DNA from: Candidatus Gottesmanbacteria bacterium
GTDB lineage: Bacteria > Patescibacteriota > Microgenomatia > UBA10105 > UBA927
Reading direction: 5' to 3'
Assembly (NCBI GenBank): GCA_963701185.1
Contig: OY969569.1
Span: 318,268-382,267, forward strand
DNA length: 64,000 nt
Each line of letters starts with the position of its first letter. The stretch's first letter is position 1. The notes below the pieces were generated by a model that worked only from the letters and a program-made list of their open reading frames with translations, was not told where the DNA came from and did not search any database. This document shows positions 19,507 to 57,895 of this stretch, piece by piece. The position numbers and the translations under genes are program-made.

Positions 19507-19528
19507 CCTGCAAGGACTCTCCTCGCAG
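19506..19528. repeat. REP-like palindromic repeat, copy 1, immediately 3' of the transposase gene.
   Basis: The sequence is acctgcaaggactctcctcgcag, a roughly 10-bp stem with a CTC loop. Confidence 0.8.
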
Positions 19529-19529
19529 A

Positions 19530-20186: not shown

Positions 20187-20211
20187 AGGATAAGTATACA
20201 ACCTCTTACAA

Positions 20212-20235
20212 ACCTGCAAGGACTCTCCTTGTAGG
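20212..20235. repeat. REP-like repeat, copy 4, at the 5' flank of the transposase gene.
   Basis: The sequence is acctgcaaggactctccttgtagg. Confidence 0.8.
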
Positions 20236-32199: not shown

Positions 32200-32202
32200 G
32201 GT
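32178..32202. repeat. REP-like repeat, copy 5 (opposite orientation), forming the 3' end of uvrB.
   Basis: The sequence is cctacaaggagagtcctcgtagg. It encodes TLQGESS and the stop. Confidence 0.8.
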
Positions 32203-36979: not shown

Positions 36980-38196
36980 AAAAACTTCCACACGCCCCCG
37001 GCGTGTATCTCTACCGTGACCATAGCGGTACCATTCTCTACATCGGCAAAGCAAAAGACCTCAAAAAACGCATCTCCACAAGCGAGAAAACGAAACTTCT
37101 TATCTCTCAAATTTCCACCATTGAAACAATACGAACGGCGAGTGAATTTGATGCATTGCTGTTGGAGGCCAAACTTATCCATGACAACGCACCGAAATAT
37201 AATGTTGTACTTAAAGACGATAAAAGCCCGCTGTATATCCTCCTTACCATCTCGGAACCGCTCCCTCATGTCTACACGATGCGCAGAAGCGATTTGCCCA
37301 AACGTATTGACCGCCGGGACGCGCTGTTTGGACCATTCCAATCTGCAACTATGGTCCGTTCTATTTTAGGGCAACTCCGACATACTATCCCATTCTGTAC
37401 ACAAAAAAGACGGACGGGTAAACCTTGCTTTTATTCGCATATCGGGTTATGTAATCCCTGTCCGTCCGCTGCCGGCACGGATAAAGCTGCGTATCGTAGA
37501 AATATCTTCCGGTTAAAAAATATTCTGTCAGGCAAATCGGATGCTGTTATCCGCGATTTAGAAAAGGATATGGAGACGGACGCCCGCCAAAAAAGATTTG
37601 AAGACGCAGCCCTTCTTCGAAATCACTTACAAAATCTTCACAGTATGCTTTCCAAAAAGTATGACCCGATGGTGTATATGAATGCGACCTCGGCGGTCAA
37701 AGATATTTATGCAAACGAGCTTTCGGCTCTTGGCACAATCCTTGGCATTCCCGTCCCCCGCCGGATTGAATGTATCGACATCTCAAATACGGGAGGTATG
37801 CAGGCAACAGGATCATTAGTCGTTCTTACCGACGGGAGGCCGGACAGCAGTCAATATCGAAGATTCCGCATCCGACGGGAAAATACCCCGAATGATACCG
37901 CCATGATTGCAGAGGTTGTGGCGAGACGATTTTCCCATTCCGAGTGGCCGAAACCTGACTTGCTCGTTATTGATGGGGGAAAGGGACAAGTTCGTGCGGC
38001 GCAAAATGCGCCGGTCCCGGTCATCGGTTTAGCCAAGCACTTTGAATCGATCATTGTACCGCAGGGCCGAGATTTTAAAGTTATCAGGGTTCCGTACACC
38101 AGCGCCGCACTGCATGTGCTGGAGCGCATCCGTGACGAAGCCCACCGCTTTGCCGTCACCTACCACCGCCTCCTCAGAAAAAAATCCTTTTTATAA
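36955..38196 (+). CDS. uvrC: Excinuclease ABC subunit C, a compact form lacking the C-terminal (HhH)2 domain.
   Basis: It has GIY-YIG (GVYLYRDHSGTILYIGKAKDLKKR), a UVR motif (FEDAALLRNHLQNL), an RNase H-like endonuclease domain (IECIDISNTGG) and IRDEAHRFA. Confidence 0.8.
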   Translation: METPQETLKKLPHAPGVYLYRDHSGTILYIGKAKDLKKRISTSEKTKLLISQISTIETIRTASEFDALLLEAKLIHDNAPKYNVVLKDDKSPLYILLTISEPLPHVYTMRRSDLPKRIDRRDALFGPFQSATMVRSILGQLRHTIPFCTQKRRTGKPCFYSHIGLCNPCPSAAGTDKAAYRRNIFRLKNILSGKSDAVIRDLEKDMETDARQKRFEDAALLRNHLQNLHSMLSKKYDPMVYMNATSAVKDIYANELSALGTILGIPVPRRIECIDISNTGGMQATGSLVVLTDGRPDSSQYRRFRIRRENTPNDTAMIAEVVARRFSHSEWPKPDLLVIDGGKGQVRAAQNAPVPVIGLAKHFESIIVPQGRDFKVIRVPYTSAALHVLERIRDEAHRFAVTYHRLLRKKSFL

Positions 38197-38220
38197 ACCT
38201 ACGAGGACTCTCCTTGTAGG
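38197..38220. repeat. REP-like repeat, copy 6, directly after the uvrC stop.
   Basis: The sequence is acctacgaggactctccttgtagg. Confidence 0.8.
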
Positions 38221-39906: not shown

Positions 39907-41250
39907 ATGACACTACTTCGGAAAGGACGGCTGATATTTCTCATCGTACGGGAGTTAGGCCTCAAGTATACCAAGGCACTCGCGCTAGGGTTTGCCAGCG
40001 GCCTCGTTCTGTCACTCGCATTTTTTCGGCTTTTTCCCATTATCAGACAACAGTGGTTTATTCCTGTTGACCGCATCGGCGTGGTCGGGGATTTTACCCC
40101 GGCGACCCTGCCGCTTACCATCCAGGAATATATCAGTGAGGGCCTGACAAACGTGAGGCCGGACGGTACGCTCGGGCCCGGACTTGCAACCAGCTGGACG
40201 GCAACGGACAGCGCTAAAACGTTTATATTCACCCTGCGCCGCGATGCCGTCTGGCACAGCGGCAAAAAAGTCACTGCCGCGGATATCAATTACAACATCC
40301 GCAATGTTGCCTTTTCACCGATCGACCAGTTTACGCTGCGGGCGAATTTGACTGCTCCATACAGCGCATTTCCTGTTGTGGTCGCCAAACCGCTGTTTCT
40401 TAATGCCCTCACCGGATTCGGCGGATACAAGGTATCCAATATTCAGCTCAACGGGAACTCTATCGTGTATCTCAAACTGGTTCCCGTTGACGGCGCCAAC
40501 CAGCATGAACGGGAATACCGGTTCTATACTACCGAAGCCGAAGCTATTCTTGCCTACAAACTGGGAGAAATCAATGAGCTTGATGATTTAACTGCATCCG
40601 GGGATTTGATCGGCTGGGGAACATCCACGGTAACAACAGAGGTCAACTATAACCGGATTATTTCCGTCTATTTCAACGTGACGAACCGACAGCTGGCAGA
40701 TAAGTCCGTGCGTCAGGCGCTCGCGTACGCCATTCCCTATCGGACGGATATGACGCGCGCGTATTCCCCGATCTCAAAAGCCTCCTGGGCATACTCGGAC
40801 AACATTAAAAAATATACGTTTGATATGGCTGCTGCCAAAAAGATTACCGGCACGACCGACGAGGGGTCTCCATCCGCCCACCTGACCATTTCTACATTTG
40901 CCCCCTATCTGTCGGATGCCCAATCCATCGCCGCAAGCTGGACGACCCTTGGCTTCACAACTGACGTCCGTGTGGAAAACAGCATTCCCGACGATTATCA
41001 GGTGCTCTTAAGTGCGCAGGATGTCCCGCCGGACCCGGATCAATATCCCTTGTGGCACAGCACGCAAAAAGAAACCAACATTACCAATTATGCAAACGTC
41101 AAAATAGATAAGCTCCTTGAAGACGGACGGCAGGAAATGGACATCGCCAAAAGGAAAACTATTTACGCCGATTTCCAAAGGTATATCACGGAAGATATTC
41201 CCGCCGCATTTTTATACTACGCCAAATCCGAAACCATCAGACGGCGCTGA
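39907..41250 (+). CDS. ABC transporter substrate-binding protein, family 5 (peptide/nickel-like).
   Basis: There is an N-terminal TM anchor, and the FIFTLRRDAVWHSGKKVTAADINYNI region is typical of SBP_bac_5. Confidence 0.5.
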   Translation: MTLLRKGRLIFLIVRELGLKYTKALALGFASGLVLSLAFFRLFPIIRQQWFIPVDRIGVVGDFTPATLPLTIQEYISEGLTNVRPDGTLGPGLATSWTATDSAKTFIFTLRRDAVWHSGKKVTAADINYNIRNVAFSPIDQFTLRANLTAPYSAFPVVVAKPLFLNALTGFGGYKVSNIQLNGNSIVYLKLVPVDGANQHEREYRFYTTEAEAILAYKLGEINELDDLTASGDLIGWGTSTVTTEVNYNRIISVYFNVTNRQLADKSVRQALAYAIPYRTDMTRAYSPISKASWAYSDNIKKYTFDMAAAKKITGTTDEGSPSAHLTISTFAPYLSDAQSIAASWTTLGFTTDVRVENSIPDDYQVLLSAQDVPPDPDQYPLWHSTQKETNITNYANVKIDKLLEDGRQEMDIAKRKTIYADFQRYITEDIPAAFLYYAKSETIRRR

Positions 41251-44905: not shown

Positions 44906-44976
44906 CTGGGAGACTAGGATTCGAACCTAGATTCCAAGATCCAAAGTCTTGTGTCCTACCGTTGAACGATCTCCCA
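44906..44976 (-). tRNA. tRNA-Gln (anticodon TTG).
   Basis: Reading the minus strand, the acceptor is TGGGAGA/TCTCCCA, the anticodon loop is CTTTGGA and the T-arm is GGTTCGAATCC. Confidence 0.8.
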
Positions 44977-44986
44977 AATTATTTTG

Positions 44987-45058
44987 AGCGGCGTACGGGA
45001 ATTGAACCCGTTACCTTCTCCTTGGCAAGGAGACATTCTACCGGTGAACTAACGCCGC
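44987..45058 (-). tRNA. tRNA-Gly (anticodon GCC).
   Basis: The acceptor is GCGGCGT/ACGCCGC, the anticodon loop is TTGCCAA and the T-arm is GGGTTCAATTCCC. Confidence 0.85.
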
Positions 45059-45072
45059 ACCATTAAACGCGG

Positions 45073-45145
45073 TGCCGAGACTAGGAGTTGCACCCAGATA
45101 ACATGTTTTTCAGACATGCGCCTTGACTACCTCGGCCATCTCGGC
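45073..45145 (-). tRNA. tRNA-Phe-like (anticodon GAA), atypical and possibly degenerate.
   Basis: The acceptor is GCCGAGA/TCTCGGC with discriminator A. The anticodon stem-loop is CATGT-CTGAAAA-ACATG. It has a non-canonical 3-bp D-stem with an 11-nt loop, and a T-loop TGCAACT with G at position 55. Confidence 0.45.
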
Positions 45146-45149
45146 AATC
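45124..45149. repeat. Direct repeat, copy A: the first 22 nt of the Phe-like tRNA plus 4 nt of leader.
   Basis: The sequence tgactacctcggccatctcggc+aatc recurs at 45218-45246 with a GGC insertion. Confidence 0.75.
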
Positions 45150-45217
45150 GAAAATCCATTGTTGTCTCTATTATTTAGTTGTATCTCGCGCAAGCTGCCG
45201 CTTCGCCTTGTCCCGCA

Positions 45218-45246
45218 AGGGGACTCGTGACTACCTCGGCCATCTC
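45218..45246. repeat. Direct repeat, copy B, of the Phe-like tRNA 5' segment.
   Basis: The sequence is tgactacctcggccatctcggcGGCaatc, 72 bp from copy A. Confidence 0.75.
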
Positions 45247-45289
45247 GGCGGCAATCCGTATTTTCTCGTATTTTACGATATTTAGCAAG

Positions 45290-45315
45290 CTGAACACATA
45301 AAGACCGGAGGTAAA
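45290..45315 (-). terminator. Hairpin terminator downstream of the minus-strand gene 45345-46028.
   Basis: It is an aaagaccgg/ccggtcttt stem with an 8-nt loop, U-rich on the minus strand. Confidence 0.4.
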
Positions 45316-45344
45316 TCCGGTCTTTATGGTAAAAAGCGCAACGG

Positions 45345-46028
45345 TTACGGATTTATTTGCGTCGAAATATCATAAAAACGCAATTGTACGAGCTTTAATC
45401 CACTATTATCGTAGTTCCAATAATAATCTTTCAAAGCATCGTTGAACAAATTGTACCGTTCAACCGCTCCGTCACCGTTTATGTCTGCATAGATATACAG
45501 CAGTATGCTGCTCACATTGGTAAATTTACTGCCACCGGTATTTCGTACCATCAACATGGATTGCACAGAACACCATAATTCACCTGTGGTCGGATCTGTG
45601 GCACAGGGCGTTGTTGTCGATTTCCCACCCGGCTTACCGAGAGCGCGCGCCCACACGGAATATGTCGTGACCCCGTCATTTGTGGGATCGGGATTGGGCA
45701 ACTGAAACGATGCGCCGTTGTCGTCAGTACAATTTCCGTCGATCACCGCAAAATCTCCTTCTTTCAGACCAATTTTACAGTTCCCCTGTAACGGAACAAA
45801 TATTCTGTGCCCCTGACTACCGGTCATATCAGCAGTTTTTCCTTTTGGTACACCTATAATATTTAAATTGTAATGCGCACCTGCAGGCGCGTTGTTGCCC
45901 GCTCTTGCCCGCATTTCCGTCGATTTAATATAGGCATTGAAGTACCAAATGAATCCGAGAATGACAAGAAGTGTGATTCCTAAGAAATACCATGTGCGAC
46001 TATCGTAACTTATTGTCTTACGAGCCAT
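45345..46028 (-). CDS. Membrane-anchored secreted hypothetical protein.
   Basis: It has an N-terminal TM helix and a Cys-containing extracellular domain, with no motif. Confidence 0.35.
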   Translation of the reverse strand: MARKTISYDSRTWYFLGITLLVILGFIWYFNAYIKSTEMRARAGNNAPAGAHYNLNIIGVPKGKTADMTGSQGHRIFVPLQGNCKIGLKEGDFAVIDGNCTDDNGASFQLPNPDPTNDGVTTYSVWARALGKPGGKSTTTPCATDPTTGELWCSVQSMLMVRNTGGSKFTNVSSILLYIYADINGDGAVERYNLFNDALKDYYWNYDNSGLKLVQLRFYDISTQINP

Positions 46029-46123: not shown

Positions 46124-47152
46124 ATGCACAATACATTGCATCCGCTTTCCGTTGCGATTTTATACTACGCCGGAACGCACGAAGATGATGAAGACACCAT
46201 TGCCGGCGTCAAAGGAATAGAGGAGTCTCTCAAACGCACAGGACATCCGGTTACAAAAATCATCGTTACAAAACAAAATTGGAAACAAGCTCTTACGACG
46301 CCGGGCGATGTTGTGTTTAACTTTGTTGAAGACGACACGTGGGAACTGTACGAAAAAGTGGCGTTCGGTTTGGAACGATTGGGGAGAGCCCAAGTCGGAC
46401 ATGATATTGCAGGTCTCCCGTATGCCGTCCGCAAATCTCCGATGAAACTCCTGATGCAAAAAATGCATATCGCGACGCCGGACTTTACAATTTTTTCCGC
46501 ACATTCCAAAACGATTGATCAGGGCAGTCTCCGATTTCCGATCATCATTAAACCATGCAATCAACACGCAGGAATCGGTATTTCCCAGGAATCAGTTGTC
46601 ACCAATAAAGACGACTTGGAAAAAAAGGTGAAGCAGAGTATTCGGATATACTCGGGTGAGGTGATTGCCGAAGAATATATACAGGGTCGGGAAATTCATG
46701 TCACGATACTCGGGAACGGCACCCGCCTCACCGTACTTCCATACTGTGAAGTAGCATTCAGCGGAAAATTTAAAAATCACTGGAACGTATATACGTATGA
46801 CGCCAAATGGGCCAAAAAAACATGGGAATATGCCGATGCCAGGGTGTGTGCGCCTGCAAAAATTTCTTCAGATCTTCAAAAAAAAATTAAAATGCTCGCC
46901 GTATTTGCGTACCGTACGTTCACATGCCGCGACATCGCGCGGTTTGATGTCCGGGTTGATGAAAAAGACACTCCGTTTCTCGTGGACATCAACATGAACC
47001 CCAGCATCAACGTTTATGATGATCAGGATGCCACAATCACCTCGATATACGCCCGCGGCTGGACGTACGATCAGTTCATCGAAAAACTTCTTGCCATAAC
47101 ATACGAACGCGTGTATGGCAGTCAATTGAAAGACAACCTGTTAAGGAAATAA
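46124..47152 (+). CDS. ATP-grasp enzyme of the D-alanine--D-alanine ligase family.
   Basis: The ATP-grasp motifs are PIIIKPCNQHAGIGIS and EEYIQGREIHVTILGN. Confidence 0.55.
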   Translation: MHNTLHPLSVAILYYAGTHEDDEDTIAGVKGIEESLKRTGHPVTKIIVTKQNWKQALTTPGDVVFNFVEDDTWELYEKVAFGLERLGRAQVGHDIAGLPYAVRKSPMKLLMQKMHIATPDFTIFSAHSKTIDQGSLRFPIIIKPCNQHAGIGISQESVVTNKDDLEKKVKQSIRIYSGEVIAEEYIQGREIHVTILGNGTRLTVLPYCEVAFSGKFKNHWNVYTYDAKWAKKTWEYADARVCAPAKISSDLQKKIKMLAVFAYRTFTCRDIARFDVRVDEKDTPFLVDINMNPSINVYDDQDATITSIYARGWTYDQFIEKLLAITYERVYGSQLKDNLLRK

Positions 47153-47704: not shown

Positions 47705-48643
47705 TTGAACATGGTAATACAGTCAAAAAAGGTCTGGGCTAAGGTTTCTTCAGTTTTTCCTTTTGTTAAACGAAACGCCACGCTTGTTGGGGTTCTAGCG
47801 TTTATTAGCTTGATGCAAGCCTTTAATTTTTGGAATCCAATCTTGAATTGGATTGGTAATATCCTATTTGAATTCCAAAAGGTCATTATTGCTCCATGGA
47901 TATCACCATTTGGCATATGGTTTTTCGTTTTTGTAGTAATAGCGATATTAGTTTATCGTGTGTCTAAGGATCATGGGTATTTGAGAAAAGTCGCCGGAGA
48001 ATTTTACGATGATTTTGAAACTGGTCTATGCAAATGGGATTACAAAGGCGATTGGTTTGTAGAGGAGGAAAATGGTAAACGACTACTAAGCGTTGCTAAT
48101 TCTGGAATTGGAGGATTCACGAAGAAAGGATTTAACTGGACTGATTATGAATTTAGCTTTGAAACAAAGGTTATTAAAATTGCATCCGGTTGGGTAATAA
48201 GAGCAAATGCCAGCGATTATTTTATGGTGCAATTATATTTGAATGGTGATTCTGCCTACGTTTATAAACTAAGACCTCATTATCACAAACTTGAAGGAGG
48301 AACAGAAATTTGGCTACCTGAAGACAACAACTCCGTAGATTTGTCTAAAATAGCACTAGAAAAGGAAATAAAATTACTCCAATGGGTCAAAGTTAAAATT
48401 ACCGTTGAGGGCAATCAAGTAGATATTTATCTTGATGGAAAACACGCTTTACACTATTTAATTACTACGGTTGGGGTATCAATAAGCAAAAAATTTACGC
48501 TCAAAGACAATTTAGGAAAAGAATTTGAAGCCACCACAAGTGAAGTTGTCCTTTTGGGCAGCAATGCCGCAGGTAGGGTAGGTTTTAGATGTGGAGATGG
48601 AGAACATGCACATTTTAGAAATATAAAGGTTAAACCACTATAA
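47705..48643 (+). CDS. Membrane-anchored DUF1080 (3-keto-disaccharide hydrolase/LamG-like) domain protein.
   Basis: It has N-terminal TM helices, and the C-terminus ends ...GFRCGDGEHAHFRNIKVKPL as in DUF1080. Confidence 0.5.
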   Translation: MNMVIQSKKVWAKVSSVFPFVKRNATLVGVLAFISLMQAFNFWNPILNWIGNILFEFQKVIIAPWISPFGIWFFVFVVIAILVYRVSKDHGYLRKVAGEFYDDFETGLCKWDYKGDWFVEEENGKRLLSVANSGIGGFTKKGFNWTDYEFSFETKVIKIASGWVIRANASDYFMVQLYLNGDSAYVYKLRPHYHKLEGGTEIWLPEDNNSVDLSKIALEKEIKLLQWVKVKITVEGNQVDIYLDGKHALHYLITTVGVSISKKFTLKDNLGKEFEATTSEVVLLGSNAAGRVGFRCGDGEHAHFRNIKVKPL

Positions 48644-48672
48644 ATTCATCACAACAGCTTACGAAGAATTAG

Positions 48673-48885
48673 TCACTTCAACTTCATCAACTCATCCAGT
48701 CGGATGCCTAGCACACGAGCGATTTTGGCGATGATTTTCAGTGTTGGGTTCCGTTTACCGCCCTCAATCCGGTTAAGGTAGGAAAAATCAATCCCTGCTC
48801 TTTCAGCAAGTTTTTCTTGAGTTACCCCCTTGGACCTTCGGATTTTCCGGAGCTTCATTCCGAATTTTTGTACTACCGTAGCCAT
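48673..48885 (-). CDS. XRE-family helix-turn-helix transcriptional regulator.
   Basis: The HTH is GVTQEKLAERAGIDFSYLNRIEGGKRNPTL. Confidence 0.85.
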   Translation of the reverse strand: MATVVQKFGMKLRKIRRSKGVTQEKLAERAGIDFSYLNRIEGGKRNPTLKIIAKIARVLGIRLDELMKLK

Positions 48886-49003
48886 GACTTGATTATGGTC
48901 AATTGACGCCGCGGAGTTTATTGTTTATAGTCAATATTATGAGGCTATGGTATATTCAGATTATTGACTCTAATAGGATGTTTGTGTCTGACAACTAATT
49001 AAT

Positions 49004-50038
49004 ATGAAAGTAAAAGGGTTGATCTTGCAAGCGCTTAAGTTTGGTTTATTCCTATTGTTCTCTCCAATCATATTGCCCTTCATGTTACTCGGTAGTATTA
49101 TTCGGGATTTTAGAAAGCGTGGTAAAAAATCCCTCATAGTCAAGCTGACGTTCGTATTCTTTATCATTAGTACCATTTGGTTATTTATTTTTAGCACACC
49201 GCAAACAGATGGATCTTCAATGGAACCTGATCTTCACAATGGGGAGTATGTGATTCTTAACAAAATAGATTATAAATTCAAAACTCCTGCAAGAGGCGAC
49301 ATTATTGTATATAAAAATCCCCAAAAGGATAACTACCCAGACTATATGGGTAAAATTATTGCAATTTCTGGGGAAATACTTCAAATAAAAGAAGGTGATG
49401 TCTATTTGAACGGCGCATTACTTCATGAACCCTATGCCACCGGAGCAACAATGCCTTCTGGTGAAGAAGGGGAAATAAAAGAAGGAGAGGAATTGAAAAT
49501 CCCCACAGATATGGTTTTTGTTTTAATGAACAATCGCCAACACGCTATTGATAGTCGCTCCTTTGGCCCAGTACCAAAAGATCACATAATTGGTAAAGTC
49601 TATAAAATCCCCGGATTCTACTTTCTCTCTGGTGTATCAAAACCACCACGCACGGGGATGAGTGGTGATGATTTATTCAACGTAGGACTATACTTCCTAA
49701 ATTTGAAGAATACAACAAAAGCAGAGGAGTATTTTATCAAATCTGGAACTGAATTTAAGTATGTTCCTGCTTTCAATGAGCTTGGGTGGATATATTTTCA
49801 AAAGAAGGACTACGAAAAAGCGCGAATTTATTATAAAAACGCTTTGGATATTGAGCCGGAAAACCCGTATGCCCTACAGAGCATGGGTTACGCCTATTGG
49901 AATACTGGAGATACAAAGAAGGCAGAAGAATATCTTAAAAAAGCCTTGATTGCTTACGAAAAAGCAAATAACCCCGATTTAAAAACGAACTTTGAAGAAC
50001 TCAAGGCAATGATAAAGGAAAATGGTATAGTTCCATAA
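49004..50038 (+). CDS. lepB: Signal peptidase I fused to a C-terminal TPR repeat domain.
   Basis: The N-terminal TM is followed by the catalytic Ser box GSSMEPDL, GDIIVYKNP and the Lys box (KIIAISGE). Tandem TPRs follow, YFIKSGTEF...ALDIEPENPYALQSMGYAYWNTGDTKKAEEYLKKAL. Confidence 0.75.
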   Translation: MKVKGLILQALKFGLFLLFSPIILPFMLLGSIIRDFRKRGKKSLIVKLTFVFFIISTIWLFIFSTPQTDGSSMEPDLHNGEYVILNKIDYKFKTPARGDIIVYKNPQKDNYPDYMGKIIAISGEILQIKEGDVYLNGALLHEPYATGATMPSGEEGEIKEGEELKIPTDMVFVLMNNRQHAIDSRSFGPVPKDHIIGKVYKIPGFYFLSGVSKPPRTGMSGDDLFNVGLYFLNLKNTTKAEEYFIKSGTEFKYVPAFNELGWIYFQKKDYEKARIYYKNALDIEPENPYALQSMGYAYWNTGDTKKAEEYLKKALIAYEKANNPDLKTNFEELKAMIKENGIVP

Positions 50039-50176
50039 ACAATATAACATTGCTTTTGATAAAGAACAGTCACTTCAAAAACATATATAGCATGGATAAT
50101 TGACCGAGTAGATGTAGCTAGAATTGGAAGAAAATGGAAGTAGTTGAAGACAATCGGATGATATCATCAACCTTGC

Positions 50177-50434
50177 ATGAAAAATATCTTAAACCGGGAA
50201 ATTACACCCAAATTTATACGTTTGTTTTCGTATAGATTCTTTAAAGAAACGGCTTTAGTTGTTATTGTATTGCTTCTTTGTGTTTTGATATGGCAAAACC
50301 AAAACTCCTATGTTGATAATGGCTACTTTGTCTTGAGGATAAACAATATAACTGGTAGTGCTTGTATAATTGACACGGGTGAGTATGCTTTTCCTTACGA
50401 TGCAAATCTCATTTTTTCAAAATGCAAGAAGTAA
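50177..50434 (+). CDS. Small membrane protein.
   Basis: It is 85 aa with one TM helix, in an AT-rich setting. Confidence 0.25.
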   Translation: MKNILNREITPKFIRLFSYRFFKETALVVIVLLLCVLIWQNQNSYVDNGYFVLRINNITGSACIIDTGEYAFPYDANLIFSKCKK

Positions 50435-50670
50435 AAATACCTATGAAAAATAGTAAAAATAATTTCGCAACTATTGGCATAGTATTGGGTGTACTATCAA
50501 TATTTTTTGCATGGATTGGGATAATACCCCTTTCTGGATTGGTGGTGAATACGATAGGAATTGTTAAATCAAGGAAATTAGAAGGAAAAGGTAAGTGGAT
50601 GGCGATAATTGGATTAGTGCTATCAGCGTTGTACACACTCGTGTATCTTAATAGATATGGTTATATCTAA
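50422..50670 (+). CDS. Small 2-TM membrane protein (DUF4190-like).
   Basis: Its two TM helices are GIVLGVLSIFFAWIGIIP and MAIIGLVLSALYTLVYL. Confidence 0.3.
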   Translation: MQEVKIPMKNSKNNFATIGIVLGVLSIFFAWIGIIPLSGLVVNTIGIVKSRKLEGKGKWMAIIGLVLSALYTLVYLNRYGYI

Positions 50671-51235
50671 AAAAACTTCCAGAGTAATCATCGTTTTTCA
50701 GCTTGTCGTTATTCTATTTTTATCAGGTGTATGCTTTTTCCAGTGGAAAGCAACAAAAATACTCACTGAAAAGTGTCAGTCTCCAAATAGATACGGTGTA
50801 AGTCCAATGCAGAAACAGTCTACTGAAAGTGGTGATTTGACAGAAATAAATCCCCCTACTGCCATAGACCTTGATCCAAAACAACTTGAACAATACTACC
50901 AAGTTTATAAAAATAATTTCGTTTTGTATCTGCGCAAGGCGCTTGATGCATACCTTGCAAACGATAGCTCTGGAGTGAATATCTCCATGGCAGCAGTTCA
51001 GGAAGATCGTAGAGACGGTATCATTACAGGTTTAGATGCGTTTGACAAGAACTACTACAAAAGTAAATTCATCGTTTTAACGATTAATGACAGTATAGCC
51101 GGTGGCAAAGATATTCAGATAATCTTTCAGGATAAACCAGACAGAATTTTTTACGTTTGGGTATATCAGCTCGCTGATGAAAGTTATGAATTACGAGCAT
51201 TTAATTCAAAAGAGTACTTTGAAGAGAGAAGATGA
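50657..51235 (+). CDS. Hypothetical protein with an N-terminal TM anchor.
   Basis: It is 192 aa with no motif. Confidence 0.3.
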   Translation: MVISKKTSRVIIVFQLVVILFLSGVCFFQWKATKILTEKCQSPNRYGVSPMQKQSTESGDLTEINPPTAIDLDPKQLEQYYQVYKNNFVLYLRKALDAYLANDSSGVNISMAAVQEDRRDGIITGLDAFDKNYYKSKFIVLTINDSIAGGKDIQIIFQDKPDRIFYVWVYQLADESYELRAFNSKEYFEERR

Positions 51236-51520
51236 AGATGATATTTGAGGCGTATAAAAACTTTATCAATGATAAGGAACACGCACTCTAAACATCATTC
51301 AAATTTTAAGATATAGGCTACGGGCACTTCAACGTTGATAAACGTGATTGTGCGATTATATTATTACTTACATACTCATGATCGTATCTTCTATATGTCA
51401 CATAGATATATAGGACAACATACATACGTCTGATTGATTTGGTGTGTATAATCAAGTATTAGATAAAGAAACAGTATGTTTTTCTTAATCATGAAATAGG
51501 ATAAACGAAGGAGAAGAAGT

Positions 51521-51916
51521 ATGAATATACCAGTTCGTGTTATTGCTCAAGGACGTGAACCAGTCAGGGATAAGTACATTGGACTTCTTTTTGAGAATTT
51601 AAAAAAAGATGTTAAATTTGAGGCACTTATACGATCTGCACAGAAAACACTCGGGCTTGATGTATTACCCCATACCTCAAATGGTACTGAATATAAGAAA
51701 CACACAGCATTACTACGATCAAATGGTTTGCAGAGAAACACAAAGGGCAAACTTGGTTTTACGGGTTTTATTAAAATTCCCTTACTGGATGATGAAGTAG
51801 ACAAGATTCTACAAAAGTATCCGTTTATGAACGATTGGAGAGAGGGGTTAAAAGAGTTTGTGCTTGGCGGAAACTTATTATTCACGATGATAGTTCAAAC
51901 ATCAGGCTTCGCGTGA
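51521..51916 (+). CDS. Hypothetical protein (island cargo).
   Basis: It has a good RBS (aaggagaag) and an upstream TATAAT. It overlaps the next ORF in another frame. Confidence 0.3.
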   Translation: MNIPVRVIAQGREPVRDKYIGLLFENLKKDVKFEALIRSAQKTLGLDVLPHTSNGTEYKKHTALLRSNGLQRNTKGKLGFTGFIKIPLLDDEVDKILQKYPFMNDWREGLKEFVLGGNLLFTMIVQTSGFA

Positions 51917-52326
51917 GAAATAGCAAATATAATACGGGGTACGACACAGACAAGATTAGTCAAAATTGCGTTATGATTCAGATTTCCGGCAAGATCTCAT
52001 GGAACGAACTTGAAGCGTGGATAACCCAACATAAAAATCAGATAGCGTGGCATACCCAAAGATTGCCGAATTATTCACTACGAAGTTCAAGGAGAGCGAA
52101 CTACGAGCGGGACAGATTGGTTGTATATCTTTACTCTGATAAGTGGCAGTGGAAAAAGAGCTTTCCAAACATAGCTGATGAACTCAAGGATGGTTCGGAC
52201 AAAAACTCTTGAACAAGCATATAGAGACTTACACTGAAAATAGCCTACTAAAATTCCACAATTAAGGTAGTGGAGTACCGCTAATTACTGATACAGAATA
52301 GGGTCATATGCAGAAGGAGAAGCGTT

Positions 52327-52527
52327 ATGACCACTGAAACAACCTCACGATTCAAACCTCAATTTATCCCCTATAGGTGTACAAAGTGCAATGGCCACGG
52401 TTAAGTCAATTATGGCAGTCTTATATGCGAAGCCTGTGAAGGGACAGGAGTTTATAAAGTTCAGATTGCAGAAGCGGATGAAAAAGAAGAAGTAAAGGAG
52501 GATCATGGAATCACTTCGTAAAATCAA
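52327..52527 (+). pseudogene. DnaJ-type double CxxCxGxG zinc-finger mini-ORF interrupted by an in-frame TAA.
   Basis: The reading is MTTETTSRFKPQFIPYRCTKCNGHG-TAA-VNYGSLICEACEGTGVYKV..., with two CxxCxGxG repeats separated by a stop at 52402-52404. Confidence 0.3.
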
Positions 52528-52867
52528 TAAGCCTCTTACCTCGTTTGAGCTTATCACGATCCGCGGTGATCTTATCAAGGCAATAGATGAGTGTACTTAC
52601 TGGTTTGTGGAGTAACGGTGGGAGCGAGATAGAGATAAACGCCATATTTACAACGCAATTTGGGAAACGAAGAATAGGAAATATAAACAAGTCTTAGAGG
52701 AAGCCTATGCAAAACTTCATTGAACAGACACCAGAAGAAAAACTTATAGCGGAAGGACTAAGGGAAGTAGCAGAAACACTAAACAAGAATAATAGTGGGA
52801 CAGAAACTAAAGCGGGTGTATACACTTCGTTGAGATAGCAGAATAGGTAGAAAAATACCTACCAAAT

Positions 52868-53575
52868 ATGACAACAGCGCTTAAACTCGTTCTTGCAGTG
52901 GCTAAGTCAGGCAAACGAAAAAATAGGGTCATGTTATGGCTTTTGTTGGTAGGCGCTCACTCAAGCGGAAAAACAGATCTCGTACGGTTAATGAAGGACA
53001 ATTAGTCAGTATTAAGCTTTGATAATCTTACACTCAATTCTTTCATATCCGGTGAACGCACAACGGAAAAAGAAAAAGTACATGATTTGCTTCAGTTACT
53101 CAATAACAAGTGTCTGATAGTGAAGGATTGGACGGTTATATTTTCTCTTGATGAACGGATGACGAAAAAAATAATAGGCGATATGGTGGGGGCGTATGAC
53201 AAGTAGTTATCAAAGTTTTCCTCTCGCCGGGGCAATATCACCTATGATGCAGAGTTCTCTCACCTGGGGTGTATTACTCAGGCAACACTCAATAGACATC
53301 AAAATTATTTAAATATGATTGGGCCGCGTTTCTTATCTTATAGCATAGGAGAAATAACGTTAGATCAGGAAGAAAAGAGCTTCAAAGCAATATTTTCTAA
53401 TGAAGACAGAAGTGAAATAGAAAAATCAGTTGCCAAAAAAGTGAACGCCTATCTATCACAACTCAACAATGAGGATATATCGGCTGTAGGTGAATTATCA
53501 GAAGATGCGAAAAAATACCTACAGGTAGCTTCACGGATTATGGCTCGGGCAAGGGGAATTGTTATCATAAAATAG
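52868..53575 (+). pseudogene. Fragmented phage/plasmid primase-like (P4/D5/VirE-type) P-loop gene.
   Basis: Three consecutive frames give LWLLLVGAHSSGKTDLVRL, then ...LLNNKCLIVKDWTVIFSLDE..., then ...ITYDAEFSHLGCITQATLN... Stops and frameshifts separate them. Confidence 0.35.
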
Positions 53576-54072
53576 TACAAGTTTATCAACGATCTGAAAG
53601 AAGAAATATCCTACTACGAGCCACTTGATATACAGATAGAACAAACATGGCGAAGCGTACAACAGTTAATACTTCTGTCAAAATACCTTGCTTTTGTAAC
53701 AGGAAAATTACAAGTAGATCACGAAGAGCTATCAATTATCAGAGAAGTAGTTTTATCCTCTATGCGCGCAGACAGAGCGCAGGCGATCAAGGCTCTCGCC
53801 AGTCGGTCAGATGGAAGTATTACGGCAAAAGAATTATCGGATCAGATGGACAAATAGTCAAAAACTTACAGGCGGCTACTTGAAGAGCTTGTTTTTCTCA
53901 AATTGATAAAAAAGATTACCGGATCAGGTCAAATGGCAGCAACTTATACAGTTATTGATGAGTTTAGAAGTTTAGTTACAGTCAGCAAGCGGGAGTTTTT
54001 GTACTCCTATAGTCAACAGGGTAACGACGATAAAACAAGTGTATCTGGTATTGGATCAGAATAGGAGGCCGT

Positions 54073-54423
54073 ATGACACAATACCAGGATCTTGAATGGG
54101 TAGTAACTCGGTGTGAACACGAGTTTGCTAACAACAAAAACAGAAGGATCTCGGCACTGTTTAGAGATATACGAAGAAACAAAAACTATTCGCTCCTCGG
54201 AGATTATTTTCTTTTTTGGGCAATCGCACAAGCATTGAAAAACAAGAACATAAAACGTTCACGAGCAAATTTTTCATATGCACTCATGCAATCTGATGAA
54301 TACAAGGCCTTACAAAAGCGGGACAAGGTGGCATGGATAAGCACCTTTATGGAGATGGCTTCTGGCGAGATGAAAAATATATACCATGCCTCTAAAAGGG
54401 GCGAAAGGCCTGAAAAGGTATGA
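54073..54423 (+). CDS. Hypothetical protein (island cargo).
   Basis: It is 116 aa with no motif. Confidence 0.25.
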   Translation: MTQYQDLEWVVTRCEHEFANNKNRRISALFRDIRRNKNYSLLGDYFLFWAIAQALKNKNIKRSRANFSYALMQSDEYKALQKRDKVAWISTFMEMASGEMKNIYHASKRGERPEKV

Positions 54424-54578
54424 AGGGCTACCTATGACAGTTACTGAACTACGGAAAAAACATCCACAGGAAACGGAACACTGGCAAGATGAACAGTGCC
54501 AGCAGTATTGTCGGTCTTTAGAGGTGCTATCCAACGTGTTTATTGATTATGTAGAGAAGCAATTACAAAAGAAGACAG

Positions 54579-55880
54579 TTGACACGTATGCAAACTAATG
54601 CCAATAATGAAGTCATGGAGAAGAAAGCAGTTGCATATGTCCGTATAAGCACGGAAGAACAATCTACGTTTTCTATTGCTCAACAGACAGAAGCGGTGAA
54701 ACGCATGGCAAAGATGCAGGGATATACGCTTCCTGATTCAGCTATCTTCATTGATGAGGGGTTTTCCGCAAAAACGACAAACAGGCCAGCTCTCATCAAG
54801 ATGCTTTCATTCTGTTCCCAAAAGAAAAATGGCATTACCGCTCTTATAGCGTACAAAATTGACCGGATGAGCAGGGATACGGCTGATTACCTCGGTATCA
54901 TGAAGGCGCTTGCTTCGCACGGAGTGAGGTTTATTTCCTGTACCGAATCAATTGAAGATTCTCCTTCCGGTGAATTCCTTTCAACAATTCTTGCAGCCGC
55001 CGCCAGATATGACAATGCAGCGAAGGCTGAAAGGGTATCGGCAAGCATAATCCAAAGGATCAAATCCGGACTGCCTCATGGAAAGGCAAAAATCGGATAT
55101 CTAAACCAAACACTGTCAGACAGAAGACGAATCATTGTCAAAGACCTGAACGCTTTGAACGCATACAGGAAGCCTGGAAGCTCATGGAAACAGGGGCATA
55201 TACACTTGAGAGCATCGCGAAATTTTTGAATAGCTGGAAAATCACAACAAAAAAAGGAACGCATTTATTCAAACTCACTGAACAACAGGTGCAGCGTATC
55301 TTTGCCGAATAAGACATATTGCGGGTATGCGATAAGCAAAAAACATGGACTTGAAATAAAAAGCGACCAAGTGCCACAGATGATAAGTGAAGATACTTTT
55401 TTTAAAGTCAAATTGATTCTTGCCGGAAGAAGAACAACAACAGGACTGTATCAACGCTTACGGCCGGAGTTTCCTTTGCGTGGCTTTGTACGGTGTCCAA
55501 AATGCAACAGCCCTCTCCATGCTGGATTCAGCAAAGGTAAAGCCAAATATTATGGATACTATTTCTGTAAAACACCTGGTCACGTCACAATACCAGACGA
55601 GACTATTGATGAAACGTTTGTGGATTTGCTCAAAGTTCTTACCCCCTCGCCCATGTTCCGGCGGGATTTCCTGGATGAAGTAAAACGAAAATGGAACGAC
55701 AAGTACATGATGTTTGTGAAACAGCACGAGAATGTACAGGAGAAAATTGACATACTGAAAGCGTTCAAACATAAGATAGCAGAAAAGAATTTGTCCGGTA
55801 CCTATACCGACGAATTTACCAAAGAACAACTGGAGAAGGTAGATATGGAGATACTGGCTATAAAGACCAGTACAGAGTGA
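54579..55880 (+). pseudogene. Large serine recombinase (integrase) disrupted by two 1-nt frameshifts.
   Basis: Frame 1 holds the resolvase catalytic domain (VAYVRISTEEQ...IDEGFSAKTTNRPAL). Frame 2 continues the recombinase domain (ERFERIQEAWKLMETGAYTLESIAKFLNSW...QRIFAE). Frame 3 holds PNKTYCGYAI plus the zinc-ribbon CPKCNSPLH...YYFC. The shifts lie near 55145 and 55305; an A7 run occurs within frame 2 at about 55245-55251. Confidence 0.8.
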
Positions 55881-56108
55881 ATCCAAGCTCGCCCGCCTTG
55901 ATATAGAGGTCGTGGTGGCATTCATGAATAGCTTCCTAGAGGACATATCAAAAGCCTTTATTGAAGCAAAATCGTTGGAACAAAAGAGGGAGTTGGTGTG
56001 TTCAATTTTCCCTAACGGGCTTGTTTTTCAACAATCAAAACTTGAACACCTTGGATTGGTTGACTGGATGCTCTATACCCAAAAAGTACAGCCTCAAATT
56101 TCAATGAG

Positions 56109-57734: not shown

Positions 57735-57820
57735 GCCGAGGTGGTGGAATGGTAGACACTCGGGCCTTAAGAGCCCGTGAAGCTAATTACTTCGTGCGAG
57801 TCCGAGTCTCGCCCTCGGCA
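57735..57820 (+). tRNA. tRNA-Leu (anticodon TAA).
   Basis: It is type II. The acceptor is GCCGAGG/CCTCGGC, the anticodon loop is CTTAAGA, and it has a long variable arm. Confidence 0.85.
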
Positions 57821-57821
57821 C

Positions 57822-57895
57822 CGGGGTGTGGCGCAATTGGCTAGCGCGCATCGTTTGGGACGATGAGGTTGTGAGTTCAAGTCTCACCACCCCGA
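57822..57895 (+). tRNA. tRNA-Pro (anticodon TGG).
   Basis: The acceptor is CGGGGTG/CACCCCG, the anticodon loop is TTTGGGA and the T-arm is GAGTTCAAGTCTC. It starts 1 nt after tRNA-Leu(TAA). Confidence 0.85.

What the first reader, a model, noticed from the sequence alone, without database searches (positions are those of the whole stretch)
45073..45246. Atypical Phe-like tRNA whose 5' 22 nt plus leader are duplicated 72 bp upstream
A 73-nt cloverleaf has a Phe-type acceptor (GCCGAGA...TCTCGGC, discriminator A) and a canonical CTGAAAA anticodon loop. Its D-arm is Ser/Leu-like (GCC-GAGGTAGTCAA-GGC) and its T-loop reads TGCAACT, with G55 instead of the invariant U. Immediately 5' of it, the segment GATT+GCCGAGATGGCCGAGGTAGTCA is repeated (45218-45246, with an extra GCC). 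The spacer between the copies carries its own hairpin (ccttg-tcccg-caagg). This looks like a scar of an integration or excision event at a tRNA, or a partially duplicated or chimeric tRNA. If this is the only tRNA-Phe in the genome, its odd T-loop would matter functionally.
Basis: seen in the sequence. Interest (0 to 1): 0.5.

Follow-up and report, generated by a model that had tools for sequence, protein, structure and literature searches.

The report
Odd tRNA-Phe with tRNA-derived leader
The "atypical" tRNA is the normal, conserved phenylalanine tRNA of a group of ultra-small (CPR/Microgenomates) bacteria. The duplicated piece in front of it is the start of a roughly 100-base tRNA-derived leader element shared by about ten related genomes, not a one-off integration scar.

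Summary
tRNA-Phe(GAA) lies on the minus strand (45073-45145), and its first 22 nt recur exactly at 45228-45249. The gap is 82 nt, not 72.

The tRNA is not defective. Fifteen distinct versions from Microgenomates genomes keep the same D-arm and TGCRAYT T-loop (G55). All cloverleaf pairs hold, and four pairs show compensatory changes.

The upstream copy is the 5' end of a conserved element I call U (window 45146-45249). U consists of tRNA nt 1-20, one or more variable hairpins, an invariant xAAGGCG (the 3' side of the tRNA D-stem), and a tetraloop hairpin with covarying stems. In most copies a CYUCGAUUAAC motif follows. U always sits directly 5' of tRNA-Phe on the same strand.

A covariance model built without the window copy finds it at E~4e-9. 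No Rfam family matches U.

Presence of U varies among close relatives. One has a full U, and two have the same leader fused directly to the tRNA. The window copy is a diverged member.

The best reading is a co-transcribed structured leader descended from a tRNA-Phe duplicate. Its function is unproven, and a neutral relic kept similar by gene conversion remains a serious rival.

The parts
45073..45145 (-). tRNA-Phe(GAA), 73 nt. It is the lineage-typical form, with an extended D-stem (GCC-GA-G / C-AA-GGC) closing a GUAGU pentaloop and the T-loop UGCAACU (G55).
   Evidence: ARAGORN. Rfam tRNA 57.8 bits. Across 15 distinct homologues, 100% of 315 pair cells are paired and 4 pairs show compensatory changes, including 15:21.
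45124..45145 (-). Repeat copy A: nt 1-22 of the tRNA-Phe gene.
   Evidence: the repeat finder, 100% identity over 22 nt.
45146..45249 (-). Element 'U': a tRNA-Phe-derived leader element, here a diverged member of a conserved family.
   Evidence: Covariance model R1, built from 8 other genomes, hits 45170-45249(-) at 48.7 bits, E~4e-9.
45228..45249 (-). Repeat copy B, the S1 segment of U. It is identical to tRNA nt 1-22.
45210..45224 (-). hp1: the hairpin GUCCC-CUUGC-GGGAC, inserted in the D-loop-equivalent position of U.
   Evidence: A hairpin at this position is present in all 10 U copies, with different sequences.
45204..45210 (-). CAAGGCG, which equals tRNA nt 21-27 (the 3' side of the D-stem). 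It is invariant in U copies, except GAAGGCG in L030, where the tRNA carries the same change.
45188..45206 (-). hp2: GCG-AAGC-GGCA-GCUU-G-CGC, the anticodon-arm-position hairpin with a tetraloop. Stems covary among genomes.
45146..45153 (-). UUUCGAUU, a displaced remnant of the CYUCGAUUAAC motif of other U copies.
   Evidence: Comparison with L030 and other U copies.
45250..45296 (-). Leader/promoter region of the tRNA cluster. It holds a -10-like TAAAAT at 45270-45275 and is conserved in relatives both with and without U.
   Evidence: Sequence read. The strict sigma-70 scan gave no hit here, so the promoter is inferred.
45297..45328 (.). Perfect 13-bp inverted repeat, a terminator-like hairpin ending the upstream 227-aa gene.
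   Evidence: the repeat finder I2. It is conserved in L030, L038 and L039.
44906..45058 (-). tRNA-Gly(GCC) at 44987-45058 and tRNA-Gln(UUG) at 44906-44976. They are co-oriented, downstream members of the same cluster and have canonical T-loops.
   Evidence: The same Phe-Gly-Gln order occurs in many related loci.

Best explanation
The window comes from a Microgenomates (Gottesmanbacteria-like, CPR/Patescibacteria) chromosome. The 73-nt gene is that lineage's standard, functional and probably sole tRNA-Phe. Its D-arm is a six-position helix (GCC, tandem G.A/A.A, then G15:C21) closing a GUAGU pentaloop. Its T-loop carries G55 instead of U55.

The upstream 22-nt copy is the 5' end of a conserved ~80-120-nt element, U, that descends from a tRNA-Phe duplicate. 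U retains nt 1-20 and the 3' side of the D-stem (xAAGGCG). It has acquired one or more hairpins inside the D-loop. It carries a short, mostly GNRA-type tetraloop hairpin where the anticodon arm was, and it has lost the 3' acceptor strand.

Inferred mechanism: U is transcribed from the cluster's promoter as the 5' leader of the Phe-Gly-Gln precursor, folds into a compact multi-hairpin structure, and is released when RNase P cuts at +1 of tRNA-Phe. It is most likely kept for a cis role in the precursor, such as a stable 5' structure or control of processing. The 20-22-nt direct repeat makes it easy to lose by recombination, which would explain the U-less alleles in close relatives. The window's copy has a rearranged 3' part and is a diverged, possibly decaying member.

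Shown: homology, position, conservation, hairpins, presence/absence polymorphism. Inferred: transcription, processing, function.
For: Lineage:
- The neighbouring genes are bacterial.
- The 227-aa neighbour has 4721 homologues. Those with names come from Gottesman-, Woese- and Daviesbacteria.
- The 22-mer occurs once per genome, as the start of tRNA-Phe, in 23 genome loci. Those with informative labels are Microgenomates/Patescibacteria.

tRNA function:
- 15 distinct sequences keep 100% of cloverleaf pairs.
- Compensatory changes occur at 15:21, 29:43, 50:64 and 52:62. None of 500 shuffles reaches the observed covariation score.
- Complete Microgenomatia genomes have a single tRNA-Phe (PMC13011429, Table S2).

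U as a family:
- Copies sit directly 5' of tRNA-Phe, on the same strand, in the window, L030, L004, L011, L021, L022, L025, L028 and L029, and 5'-truncated in L002.
- The model built without the window hits it at E~4e-9. It finds no U-level match anywhere else in 276 kb; the other hits, at or below 23 bits, lie almost entirely on tRNA-Phe 5' sequence.
- The U core is 74% identical between genomes (shuffled control 55%). The 60 nt upstream are at the level of shuffled sequence, 55% against 53%.
- hp1 and hp2 are present in all 10 copies with different sequences.
- 82.8% of model pair cells are paired, against 30-45% for slid controls.
- Seven of 10 copies fold with z <= -2.2.
- The reading frame is not conserved and two copies have early stops, so U is not coding.

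Transcription and polymorphism:
- TATAAT lies 15-18 nt upstream of U in L004, L011, L025 and L029. It lies 9-17 nt upstream of the tRNA itself in U-less genomes.
- In L030 both the tRNA and U carry C15 and G at the pairing position.
- L038 and L039 have the same leader fused directly to the tRNA.
Against: - There is no expression data. The promoter upstream of the window's U is only a -10-like hexamer and failed the strict scan.
- With 9-10 sequences the covariation statistics for U are modest: 4 double-change pairs, reached by 20 of 500 shuffles.
- Two mutually exclusive folds fit the data: a tRNA-like D-stem, or a CGAGG/CCUCG closing helix.
- The copies in the window and in its nearest relative are not more stable than shuffles (z -0.6 and -0.9). 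The window lacks the CCUCGAUUAAC segment in its usual place.
- U is absent in two close relatives and in most of the sampled genomes, so it is dispensable.
- Near-identity of S1 to the tRNA, and the concerted C15 change, could reflect gene conversion rather than selection.
Confidence: 0.6

Rival explanations
1. Neutral relic. U is a decaying tandem duplicate of tRNA-Phe with no function. Its 5' 20 nt stay identical to the tRNA only through short-tract gene conversion with the copy 104 nt away, and it is being lost lineage by lineage through direct-repeat deletion.
For: - There is presence/absence polymorphism among close relatives, bounded by the repeat.
- In L030, U and the tRNA share the C15 change although it breaks the alternative P1 pairing.
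- The window and L030 copies have weak fold z-scores.
- The window's 3' part is rearranged.
- Further ad hoc 5' fragments occur in L021 and L007.
Against: - The U core between S1 and the motif is far better conserved than the flanking intergenic DNA: 74% against a shuffle-level 55%.
- hp1 and hp2 persist in all 10 copies, with compensatory stem changes and mostly GNRA-type tetraloops.
- L002 keeps the hairpin core although it has lost the first 10 nt.
- In L030 the 7-nt xAAGGCG segment, separated from S1 by a 27-nt insertion, also changed in concert. Conversion is unlikely to act on so short a tract.
Confidence: 0.28
2. Integration or excision scar. A mobile element carrying a copy of the tRNA's 5' end integrated into tRNA-Phe and later left or was deleted, leaving an attL-like partial copy.
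For: - The tRNA array is a hot spot for insertions. An 8.5-kb low-GC block with a split serine recombinase lies between tRNA-Val and tRNA-Leu.
- The Logan contig L001 equals the window for 2.4 kb but switches to unrelated DNA after tRNA nt 28.
- L021 has a second 23-nt copy with an unrelated spacer.
Against: - Only 82 nt lie between the copies and there is no recombinase there.
- The spacer is homologous across about ten genomes and always has the same architecture.
- The 22-mer is absent from 2.9 million viral contigs.
- From my own knowledge, tRNA-targeting integrases normally duplicate the 3' part of the tRNA, not the 5' part.
- The 44-aa ORF at the end of L001 has no Pfam or database homologue.
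Confidence: 0.05
3. The gene is a specialised non-proteogenic tRNA, like the Staphylococcus cell-wall tRNA-Gly species that also have UGC/UGU instead of UUC in the T-loop. A canonical tRNA-Phe would then exist elsewhere in the genome.
For: - The T-loop triplet TGC is the hallmark reported for non-proteogenic tRNA-Gly (PMC7826273).
- A D-Ala-D-Ala-ligase-like ATP-grasp gene lies 1 kb away.
Against: - The gene occupies the conserved Val-Phe-Gly-Gln position of the only tRNA-Phe seen in every related locus.
- Complete Microgenomatia genomes have exactly one tRNA-Phe.
- The 22-mer occurs only at the tRNA-Phe locus in each genome that matched it; L021 has two copies there.
Confidence: 0.04

Closest known systems
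E. coli tyrT operon repeats / rtT RNA (Rfam RF00391); recalled from my own knowledge, not read here
   Same: Both are a tRNA operon whose transcribed spacer contains repeated units that each include an exact fragment of the tRNA. In tyrT that gives a structured by-product RNA released by tRNA processing.
   Different: - The tyrT repeats lie 3' of the tRNA and carry its 3' 19 nt. U lies 5' and carries nt 1-20 plus the 3' side of the D-stem.
- There is no sequence relation, and Rfam gave no rtT hit.
- The host is a CPR bacterium.
Partial tRNA copies at attL/attR of integrative elements
   Same: Both show a direct repeat of part of a tRNA gene next to the intact gene, with presence/absence polymorphism bounded by the repeat.
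   Different: - The repeat is the 5' part of the tRNA, not the 3' part.
- Only 82 nt lie between the copies and there is no recombinase.
- The intervening sequence is itself conserved and structured across genomes.
Transcribed spacers of tRNA operons acting as small RNAs (for example 3'ETS-leuZ in E. coli); my own knowledge
   Same: Both are a non-tRNA segment of a tRNA precursor that is released by processing and could have a role of its own.
   Different: - U is tRNA-derived and lies 5' of the tRNA.
- No target or function is known, and nothing has been tested.
Non-proteogenic tRNA-Gly of Staphylococcus (PMC7826273)
   Same: Both have TGC in place of TTC in the T-loop, so no pseudouridine-55 is possible.
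   Different: Here it is apparently the only tRNA-Phe of the genome, sits in the conserved tRNA array, and must therefore serve translation.
Class II (Leu/Ser/Tyr) bacterial tRNA D-arm
   Same: Both have the sequence UGGCCGAG...AAGGC with a 3-bp GCC/GGC stem.
   Different: - This tRNA has a short 4-nt variable loop and a Phe anticodon.
- Position 15 pairs with position 21 (a G:C to C:G swap in L030), giving a closed pentaloop rather than an open loop containing G18G19.

Membership tests
Bacterial elongator tRNA (Rfam RF00005) | Score above the curated gathering threshold and a call by a tRNA finder | tested here: met
   57.8 bits against 29. ARAGORN calls tRNA-Phe gaa.
Bacterial elongator tRNA (Rfam RF00005) | Four cloverleaf helices maintained by compensatory change in homologues | tested here: met
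   315 of 315 cells are paired, and 4 pairs show double changes. None of 500 shuffles reaches the observed covariation score.
Bacterial elongator tRNA (Rfam RF00005) | Seven-nt anticodon loop with U33 and purine 37; discriminator A73 for Phe | tested here: met
   The loop is CUGAAAA and the 3' end is ...UCUCGGC-A.
Bacterial elongator tRNA (Rfam RF00005) | T-loop U54-U55(Psi)-C56 | tested here: not met
   The T-loop is UGCAACU. G55 is invariant in 15 homologues. It is therefore a functional tRNA with a non-canonical elbow.
Bacterial elongator tRNA (Rfam RF00005) | D-loop G18G19 contacting the T-loop | tested here: inconclusive
   The D-loop is a closed GUAGU pentaloop. A18.G55 plus G19:C56 is a possible substitute, but that is inference only.
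Integrative-element att scar at a tRNA gene | The partial tRNA copy delimits an element that carries, or once carried, a recombinase | tested here: not met
   The spacer is 82 nt with no ORF. There was no viral hit.
Integrative-element att scar at a tRNA gene | The sequence between the copies is unrelated between independent events | tested here: not met
   The spacer is homologous in about 10 genomes.
Integrative-element att scar at a tRNA gene | Empty-site alleles exist in relatives | tested here: met
   L038 and L039 have the leader fused to the tRNA. This is equally expected from direct-repeat deletion.
Non-proteogenic tRNA (Staphylococcus tRNA-Gly type) | T-loop UGC/UGU instead of UUC | tested here: met
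   with PMC7826273.
Non-proteogenic tRNA (Staphylococcus tRNA-Gly type) | Coexists with a canonical isoacceptor used by the ribosome | tested here: inconclusive
   None is present in the 64-kb window. The literature table gives 1 tRNA-Phe per complete Microgenomatia genome. The window's whole genome could not be scanned.
Known structured RNA family (Rfam 15, including rtT, Y-RNA-like and ribozymes) | Covariance-model match to U | tested here: not met
   No family covers U in the window, even at E<=10, and none covers it in L025 or L029 at E<=5.
Conserved structured RNA motif (generic criteria) | Conserved position and strand, conservation above that of the flanks, hairpins kept by compensatory change, and non-coding | tested here: met
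   The statistical support is moderate because only 10 sequences are available.
Intron-containing or split tRNA gene | An intact tRNA can be made only after removal or joining of segments | tested here: not met
   The downstream copy is a complete 73-nt tRNA on its own. The Patescibacteria tRNA introns described in PMC13011429 are group I introns in the anticodon loop.

The most novel reading that the evidence does not exclude
U is a functional tRNA-Phe mimic that co-evolves with its cognate, structurally aberrant tRNA. It keeps the acceptor 5' strand and the exact D-arm of the tRNA, and follows the tRNA's G15:C21 to C15:G21 swap in L030. That could be because it competes with or pairs with tRNA-Phe or its precursor, or titrates a factor that reads this unusual D-arm (a processing or modification enzyme, PheRS, or a tRNA-targeting toxin). 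That would make it a new class of tRNA-derived regulatory leader RNA in CPR bacteria. Alongside it sits the sole tRNA-Phe of a whole bacterial class, which works in translation without U55/Psi55.
Probability: 0.2. Interest if true: 0.7.

Novelty: new variant of a known kind. Interest (0 to 1): 0.45.

Why it matters
Two things would interest tRNA and CPR specialists.

First, a whole class of ultra-small bacteria appears to translate Phe codons with a single tRNA that breaks one of the most conserved rules of tRNA architecture. It has G55 instead of U55/Psi55, and a closed pentaloop D-arm instead of G18G19. This is a natural experiment on the tRNA elbow, its recognition by RNase P, the ribosome and TruB, and on annotation tools.

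Second, the leader element is an uncatalogued, conserved, tRNA-derived structured sequence. Its presence/absence polymorphism and concerted change with the tRNA give a tractable case of how tRNA duplicates are either exapted or erased.

For genome annotation, it also warns that a partial tRNA copy next to a tRNA is not automatically an att scar.

Tried and rejected
- **Phage origin of the tRNA-rich window.** There was no DNA match to 50,697 phage records, and the neighbouring genes are bacterial transporters.
- **Metagenome scan for 22-mer copies not followed by the tRNA.** The pattern ...GTAGTCANNH gave 0 hits. A second scan, with a pattern written for the element, gave 5 loci.
- **Viral-contig scan for an attP-like copy.** It gave 0 hits.
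- **Small ORF in U.** The frame is not conserved: indels of 16, 17 and 19 nt, and stops in L021 and L028.
- **Known RNA family.** Rfam at permissive E-values found nothing over U.
- **The divergent tail of L001.** There was no similarity to any held sequence, no Pfam hit and no homologue. It begins with TCTCGG, the 3' acceptor strand, so it may be an internally deleted tRNA copy. This is unresolved.
- **An internal promoter in the 3' part of U (TTAACA ... AAATCT).** Rejected, because the -10 would place the start inside the tRNA.
- **T-box-like or anticodon-complementary specifier in U.** The UUC is not conserved.
- **More relatives through the 227-aa neighbour protein.** Synteny with tRNA-Phe holds only for relatives at >=86% identity. 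It is lost in more distant ones.
- **The sigma-70 scan.** It gave no strict promoter upstream of the window's U.

Full report
**1. What is in the sequence**

The feature lies on the minus strand. ARAGORN finds 12 tRNA genes in the window, among them tRNA-Phe(GAA) at 45071-45145(-). It is followed on the same strand by tRNA-Gly(GCC) and tRNA-Gln(UUG). Rfam's tRNA model scores the gene at 57.8 bits (threshold 29) over 45073-45145.

The first 22 nt recur exactly at 45228-45249, 104 nt upstream start to start, with an 82-nt gap. An exact 22-mer repeat is not expected by chance in 64 kb. No other tRNA of the window has a partial copy.

**2. Where the window comes from**

The neighbouring genes encode an HlyD/MacB-type ABC exporter, a solute-binding protein and a D-Ala-D-Ala-ligase-like ATP-grasp enzyme. 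There is no DNA similarity to phage records.

The 227-aa protein encoded just upstream (45345-46028, minus strand) has 4721 homologues. The named ones come from Gottesman-, Woese- and Daviesbacteria.

A scan of 185,579 species-representative genomes with the 22-mer gave 23 loci. Those with informative labels are Microgenomates/Patescibacteria MAGs. The rest are TPA MAGs labelled 'uncultured Gammaproteobacteria' that share the same tRNA array. In every locus where the gene is not cut by a contig end, the 22-mer is the start of a tRNA-Phe(GAA). It is usually embedded in a conserved Leu-Leu-Val-Phe-Gly-Gln array.

**3. The tRNA is the lineage's normal tRNA-Phe**

I collected fifteen distinct 73-nt versions. 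On the cloverleaf, 315 of 315 pair cells are standard pairs. Four pairs show compensatory double changes: 29:43 in four types, 50:64, 52:62 and 15:21. None of 500 shuffles reaches the observed covariation score, and slid controls reach only 22-44% pairing.

G55 and C56 are invariant, and the T-loop reads UGCRAYU. The 15:21 swap (G:C in most, C:G in L030-L033 and L039) shows that the D-arm is a longer helix closing a GUAGU pentaloop: GCC, then G.A and A.A, then G15:C21. It is not an open loop with G18G19. An A18.G55 plus G19:C56 elbow contact is my inference.

Ten of the other eleven tRNAs of the window have canonical GTTCRA T-loops. tRNA-Leu(UAA) has TCCGAGT.

TGC or TGT in place of TTC is otherwise known as the mark of the non-proteogenic cell-wall tRNA-Gly species of Staphylococcus (PMC7826273). 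Here, however, the gene sits at the conserved Phe position of the array. Complete Microgenomatia genomes have exactly one tRNA-Phe by tRNAscan-SE and ARAGORN (PMC13011429, Table S2). It is therefore most probably the translational tRNA-Phe. I could not scan the window's whole genome.

**4. The upstream copy belongs to a conserved element**

Allowing a few mismatches, a second copy of the 22-mer appears 103-123 nt upstream of tRNA-Phe in L004, L011, L021 and L022. A metagenome scan with a pattern written for the shared architecture added L025-L029.

All copies share one plan:
- tRNA nt 1-20, nearly invariant, then two variable bases.
- One or two hairpins of variable sequence and length (hp1). 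Some copies have an additional GCGAAGC mini-hairpin.
- An invariant CAAGGCG, which is tRNA nt 21-27.
- A 4-5-bp hairpin, hp2, with a loop of three or four bases, mostly a GNRA-type tetraloop. Its stem covaries: AAGC/GCUU, CAGC/GCUG, UCAGC/GCUGA, GAGC/GCUC.
- (G)CGCGRGR, then CYUCGAUUAAC, then an A/U-rich tail that in most copies ends in AAUCU, and then the tRNA.

L002 has the same element between tRNA-Val and tRNA-Phe but without the first 10 nt.

I built a covariance model from eight copies, leaving out the window. It finds the window copy at 45170-45249(-) with 48.7 bits, E~4e-9. In 276 kb of held sequence it finds U-level matches only directly 5' of tRNA-Phe. Nearly all the weaker hits (at most 23 bits) lie on tRNA-Phe 5' sequence: the gene's own 5' part or a further partial copy.

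No Rfam family matches the element. Reading frames are not conserved and two copies have early stops, so it is not coding.

**5. Evidence for constraint, and its limits**

Between genomes the 60 nt upstream of U are no more alike than shuffled sequence (0.55 against 0.53). The core from xAAGGCG to the motif is 0.74 identical, against 0.55 for the shuffled control.

Every copy has hp1 and hp2. On the model alignment 82.8% of pair cells are paired, against 30-45% for slid controls. Four pairs show double changes, but with nine sequences the shuffle tests are only moderately convincing: 8 of 500 and 20 of 500.

Seven of ten copies fold with z <= -2.2 into a closed three-way junction in which CGAGG(U) of the tRNA-like part pairs with (A)CCUCG. 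The window copy and L030 do not (z -0.6 and -0.9).

A competing, tRNA-like fold is favoured by L030. In it, D-stem nt 10-15 pair with xAAGGC, enclosing hp1, and a local CGRG/CYCG hairpin forms in the T-arm position. I cannot decide between the two folds.

**6. Closest relatives: concerted change and presence/absence**

L030-L033 are four independent assemblies. Their neighbour protein is 88% identical to the window's, and they share the order Ddl-like gene, 227-aa gene, U, Phe, Gly. They carry a full U (82 bits) that includes CUCGAUUAAC.

Against L030, the window's U is nearly identical through hp2, except for an 8-nt indel. Its 3' part is rearranged, with only UUUCGAUU left next to the tRNA. 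The window copy is therefore a diverged member.

In L030 the tRNA has C15 and G21, and its U also has C15 and GAAGGCG. This is concerted change at the one D-stem pair that varies. It is explained either by gene conversion or by a need for U to match its tRNA.

L038 and L039 (86% and 88% identity) have the same terminator hairpin and the same leader...ACGGATTGCT, fused directly to an intact tRNA-Phe with no U. U is thus polymorphic among close relatives. Its boundary is exactly the direct repeat, as expected from repeat-mediated deletion or, less simply, from insertion.

**7. How it most likely works**

In L004, L011, L025 and L029 a TATAAT hexamer lies 15-18 nt upstream of U. In U-less genomes (L005, L012, L014, L016) it lies 9-17 nt upstream of the tRNA itself. 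The window has TAAAAT 20 nt upstream of U, after the terminator hairpin of the preceding gene, although the strict scan does not call a promoter there.

From this I infer three steps:
- U occupies the original promoter-proximal position of a tRNA-Phe gene.
- It is transcribed as the 5' leader of the Phe-Gly-Gln precursor.
- It is released by RNase P cleavage at +1 of the tRNA.

Its origin is best explained as a tRNA-Phe duplicate that kept nt 1-27, with hairpins inserted in the D-loop. The anticodon loop was replaced by a capped hairpin, and the 3' acceptor strand was lost.

I favour a cis role in the precursor, such as a stable structured 5' end or modulation of processing, over pure neutrality. 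My estimate is about 0.6 against 0.3. This step is inference, and no expression or biochemical data exist.

**8. The integration hypothesis**

For the window the integration hypothesis fails. The spacer is 82 nt, there is no recombinase, the 22-mer is absent from viral contigs, and the spacer is a conserved family.

Still, the tRNA array is clearly recombination-prone:
- L021 has, besides U, a second 23-nt copy. The end of its spacer resembles the native leader of L019.
- L007 has a 14-nt copy, then a hairpin, then tRNA nt 15-24.
- The Logan contig L001 matches the window, differing only by G16A, up to tRNA nt 28. It then continues with TCTCGG (the 3' acceptor strand) and unrelated DNA.
- An 8.5-kb low-GC block with a split serine recombinase separates tRNA-Val from tRNA-Leu(GAG), which are adjacent elsewhere.

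**9. Comparison with known systems, and verdict**

The nearest analogue I know is the E. coli tyrT operon, where spacer repeats contain a tRNA-Tyr fragment and yield the rtT RNA. That comparison is from memory. Rfam's rtT model does not match here, the fragment there is the 3' part, and the repeats lie downstream of the tRNA.

The membership tests give these results:
- The gene is a functional elongator tRNA that fails the U55 rule.
- U fails the defining features of an att scar, of an intron or split tRNA, and of every Rfam family.
- U meets the generic criteria of a conserved structured motif, at moderate strength.

I rate this a new variant of a known kind: a tRNA-derived operon leader, paired with a lineage-specific non-canonical tRNA. 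Interest is moderate, at 0.45.

Noticed in passing
window 48000-56100 (ORFs 54579-55229 + and 55302-55880 +): A low-GC block (0.35-0.39 against ~0.48 elsewhere) ends in a Resolvase N-terminal domain ORF followed by a separate recombinase zinc-ribbon ORF. This looks like a split or frameshifted large serine recombinase. The block sits between tRNA-Val (47469) and tRNA-Leu(GAG) (56108), genes that are adjacent in other Microgenomates. It is probably an island inserted into the tRNA array.
   Followed up: partly
window 14743-14771, 19500-19529, 19712-19741, 20017-20046, 20206-20235, 32178-32200, 38191-38220: Seven copies, on both strands, of a ~23-30-nt palindromic element (CCTGCAAGGACTCTCCTTGTAGG). 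It looks like a REP-like or terminator-like repeat family.
   Followed up: no
window 57735-57822 (+): tRNA-Leu(UAA) also has a non-canonical T-loop, UCCGAGU (C55 instead of U55). The other ten tRNAs are canonical.
   Followed up: no
L001:2384-2740 (Logan ERR10755943 contig): The contig matches the window for 2.4 kb, including U. It then shows tRNA-Phe nt 1-28 (with G16A) joined to TCTCGG, the tRNA 3' acceptor strand, and 320 nt of unmatched DNA. That DNA holds a 44-aa ORF start with no homologues. It may be an internally deleted tRNA copy or an insertion junction in a co-occurring strain.
   Followed up: partly
L021:2376-2656; L007:1526-1600 (-): L021 carries U, then a second unrelated 23-nt 5' copy, then the tRNA, with the contig ending inside the tRNA. 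L007 carries a 14-nt 5' copy, a hairpin and tRNA nt 15-24. So 5' fragments of tRNA-Phe have arisen repeatedly at this locus.
   Followed up: partly
L023:7680-7790; L009:4315-4412: 3' fragments of tRNA-Val-like genes (...GGTTCGAGACCTCTCGAATCCACC...GAATCCACTATCGTCCAC) lie between tRNA-Val and tRNA-Phe. tRNA fragments are common in these CPR tRNA arrays.
   Followed up: no
window 45345-46028 (-): The 227-aa protein has no Pfam or PHROG family but 4721 homologues at up to 88% identity across Microgenomates. It is a widespread, uncharacterised, lineage-specific protein family.
   Followed up: no
Genome-contig loci L003, L004, L007, L013-L016, L019-L024: MAGs deposited as 'uncultured Gammaproteobacteria' (TPA assemblies) carry the Microgenomates-type tRNA-Phe and tRNA array. 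Their taxonomic label is probably wrong.
   Followed up: no
window 41198-41223 and 46146-46171: A 26-nt direct repeat (81% identity, TTCCCGCCGCATTTTTATACTACGCC). One copy lies near the end of the solute-binding protein gene, the other at the start of the Ddl-like gene. Its meaning is unknown.
   Followed up: no
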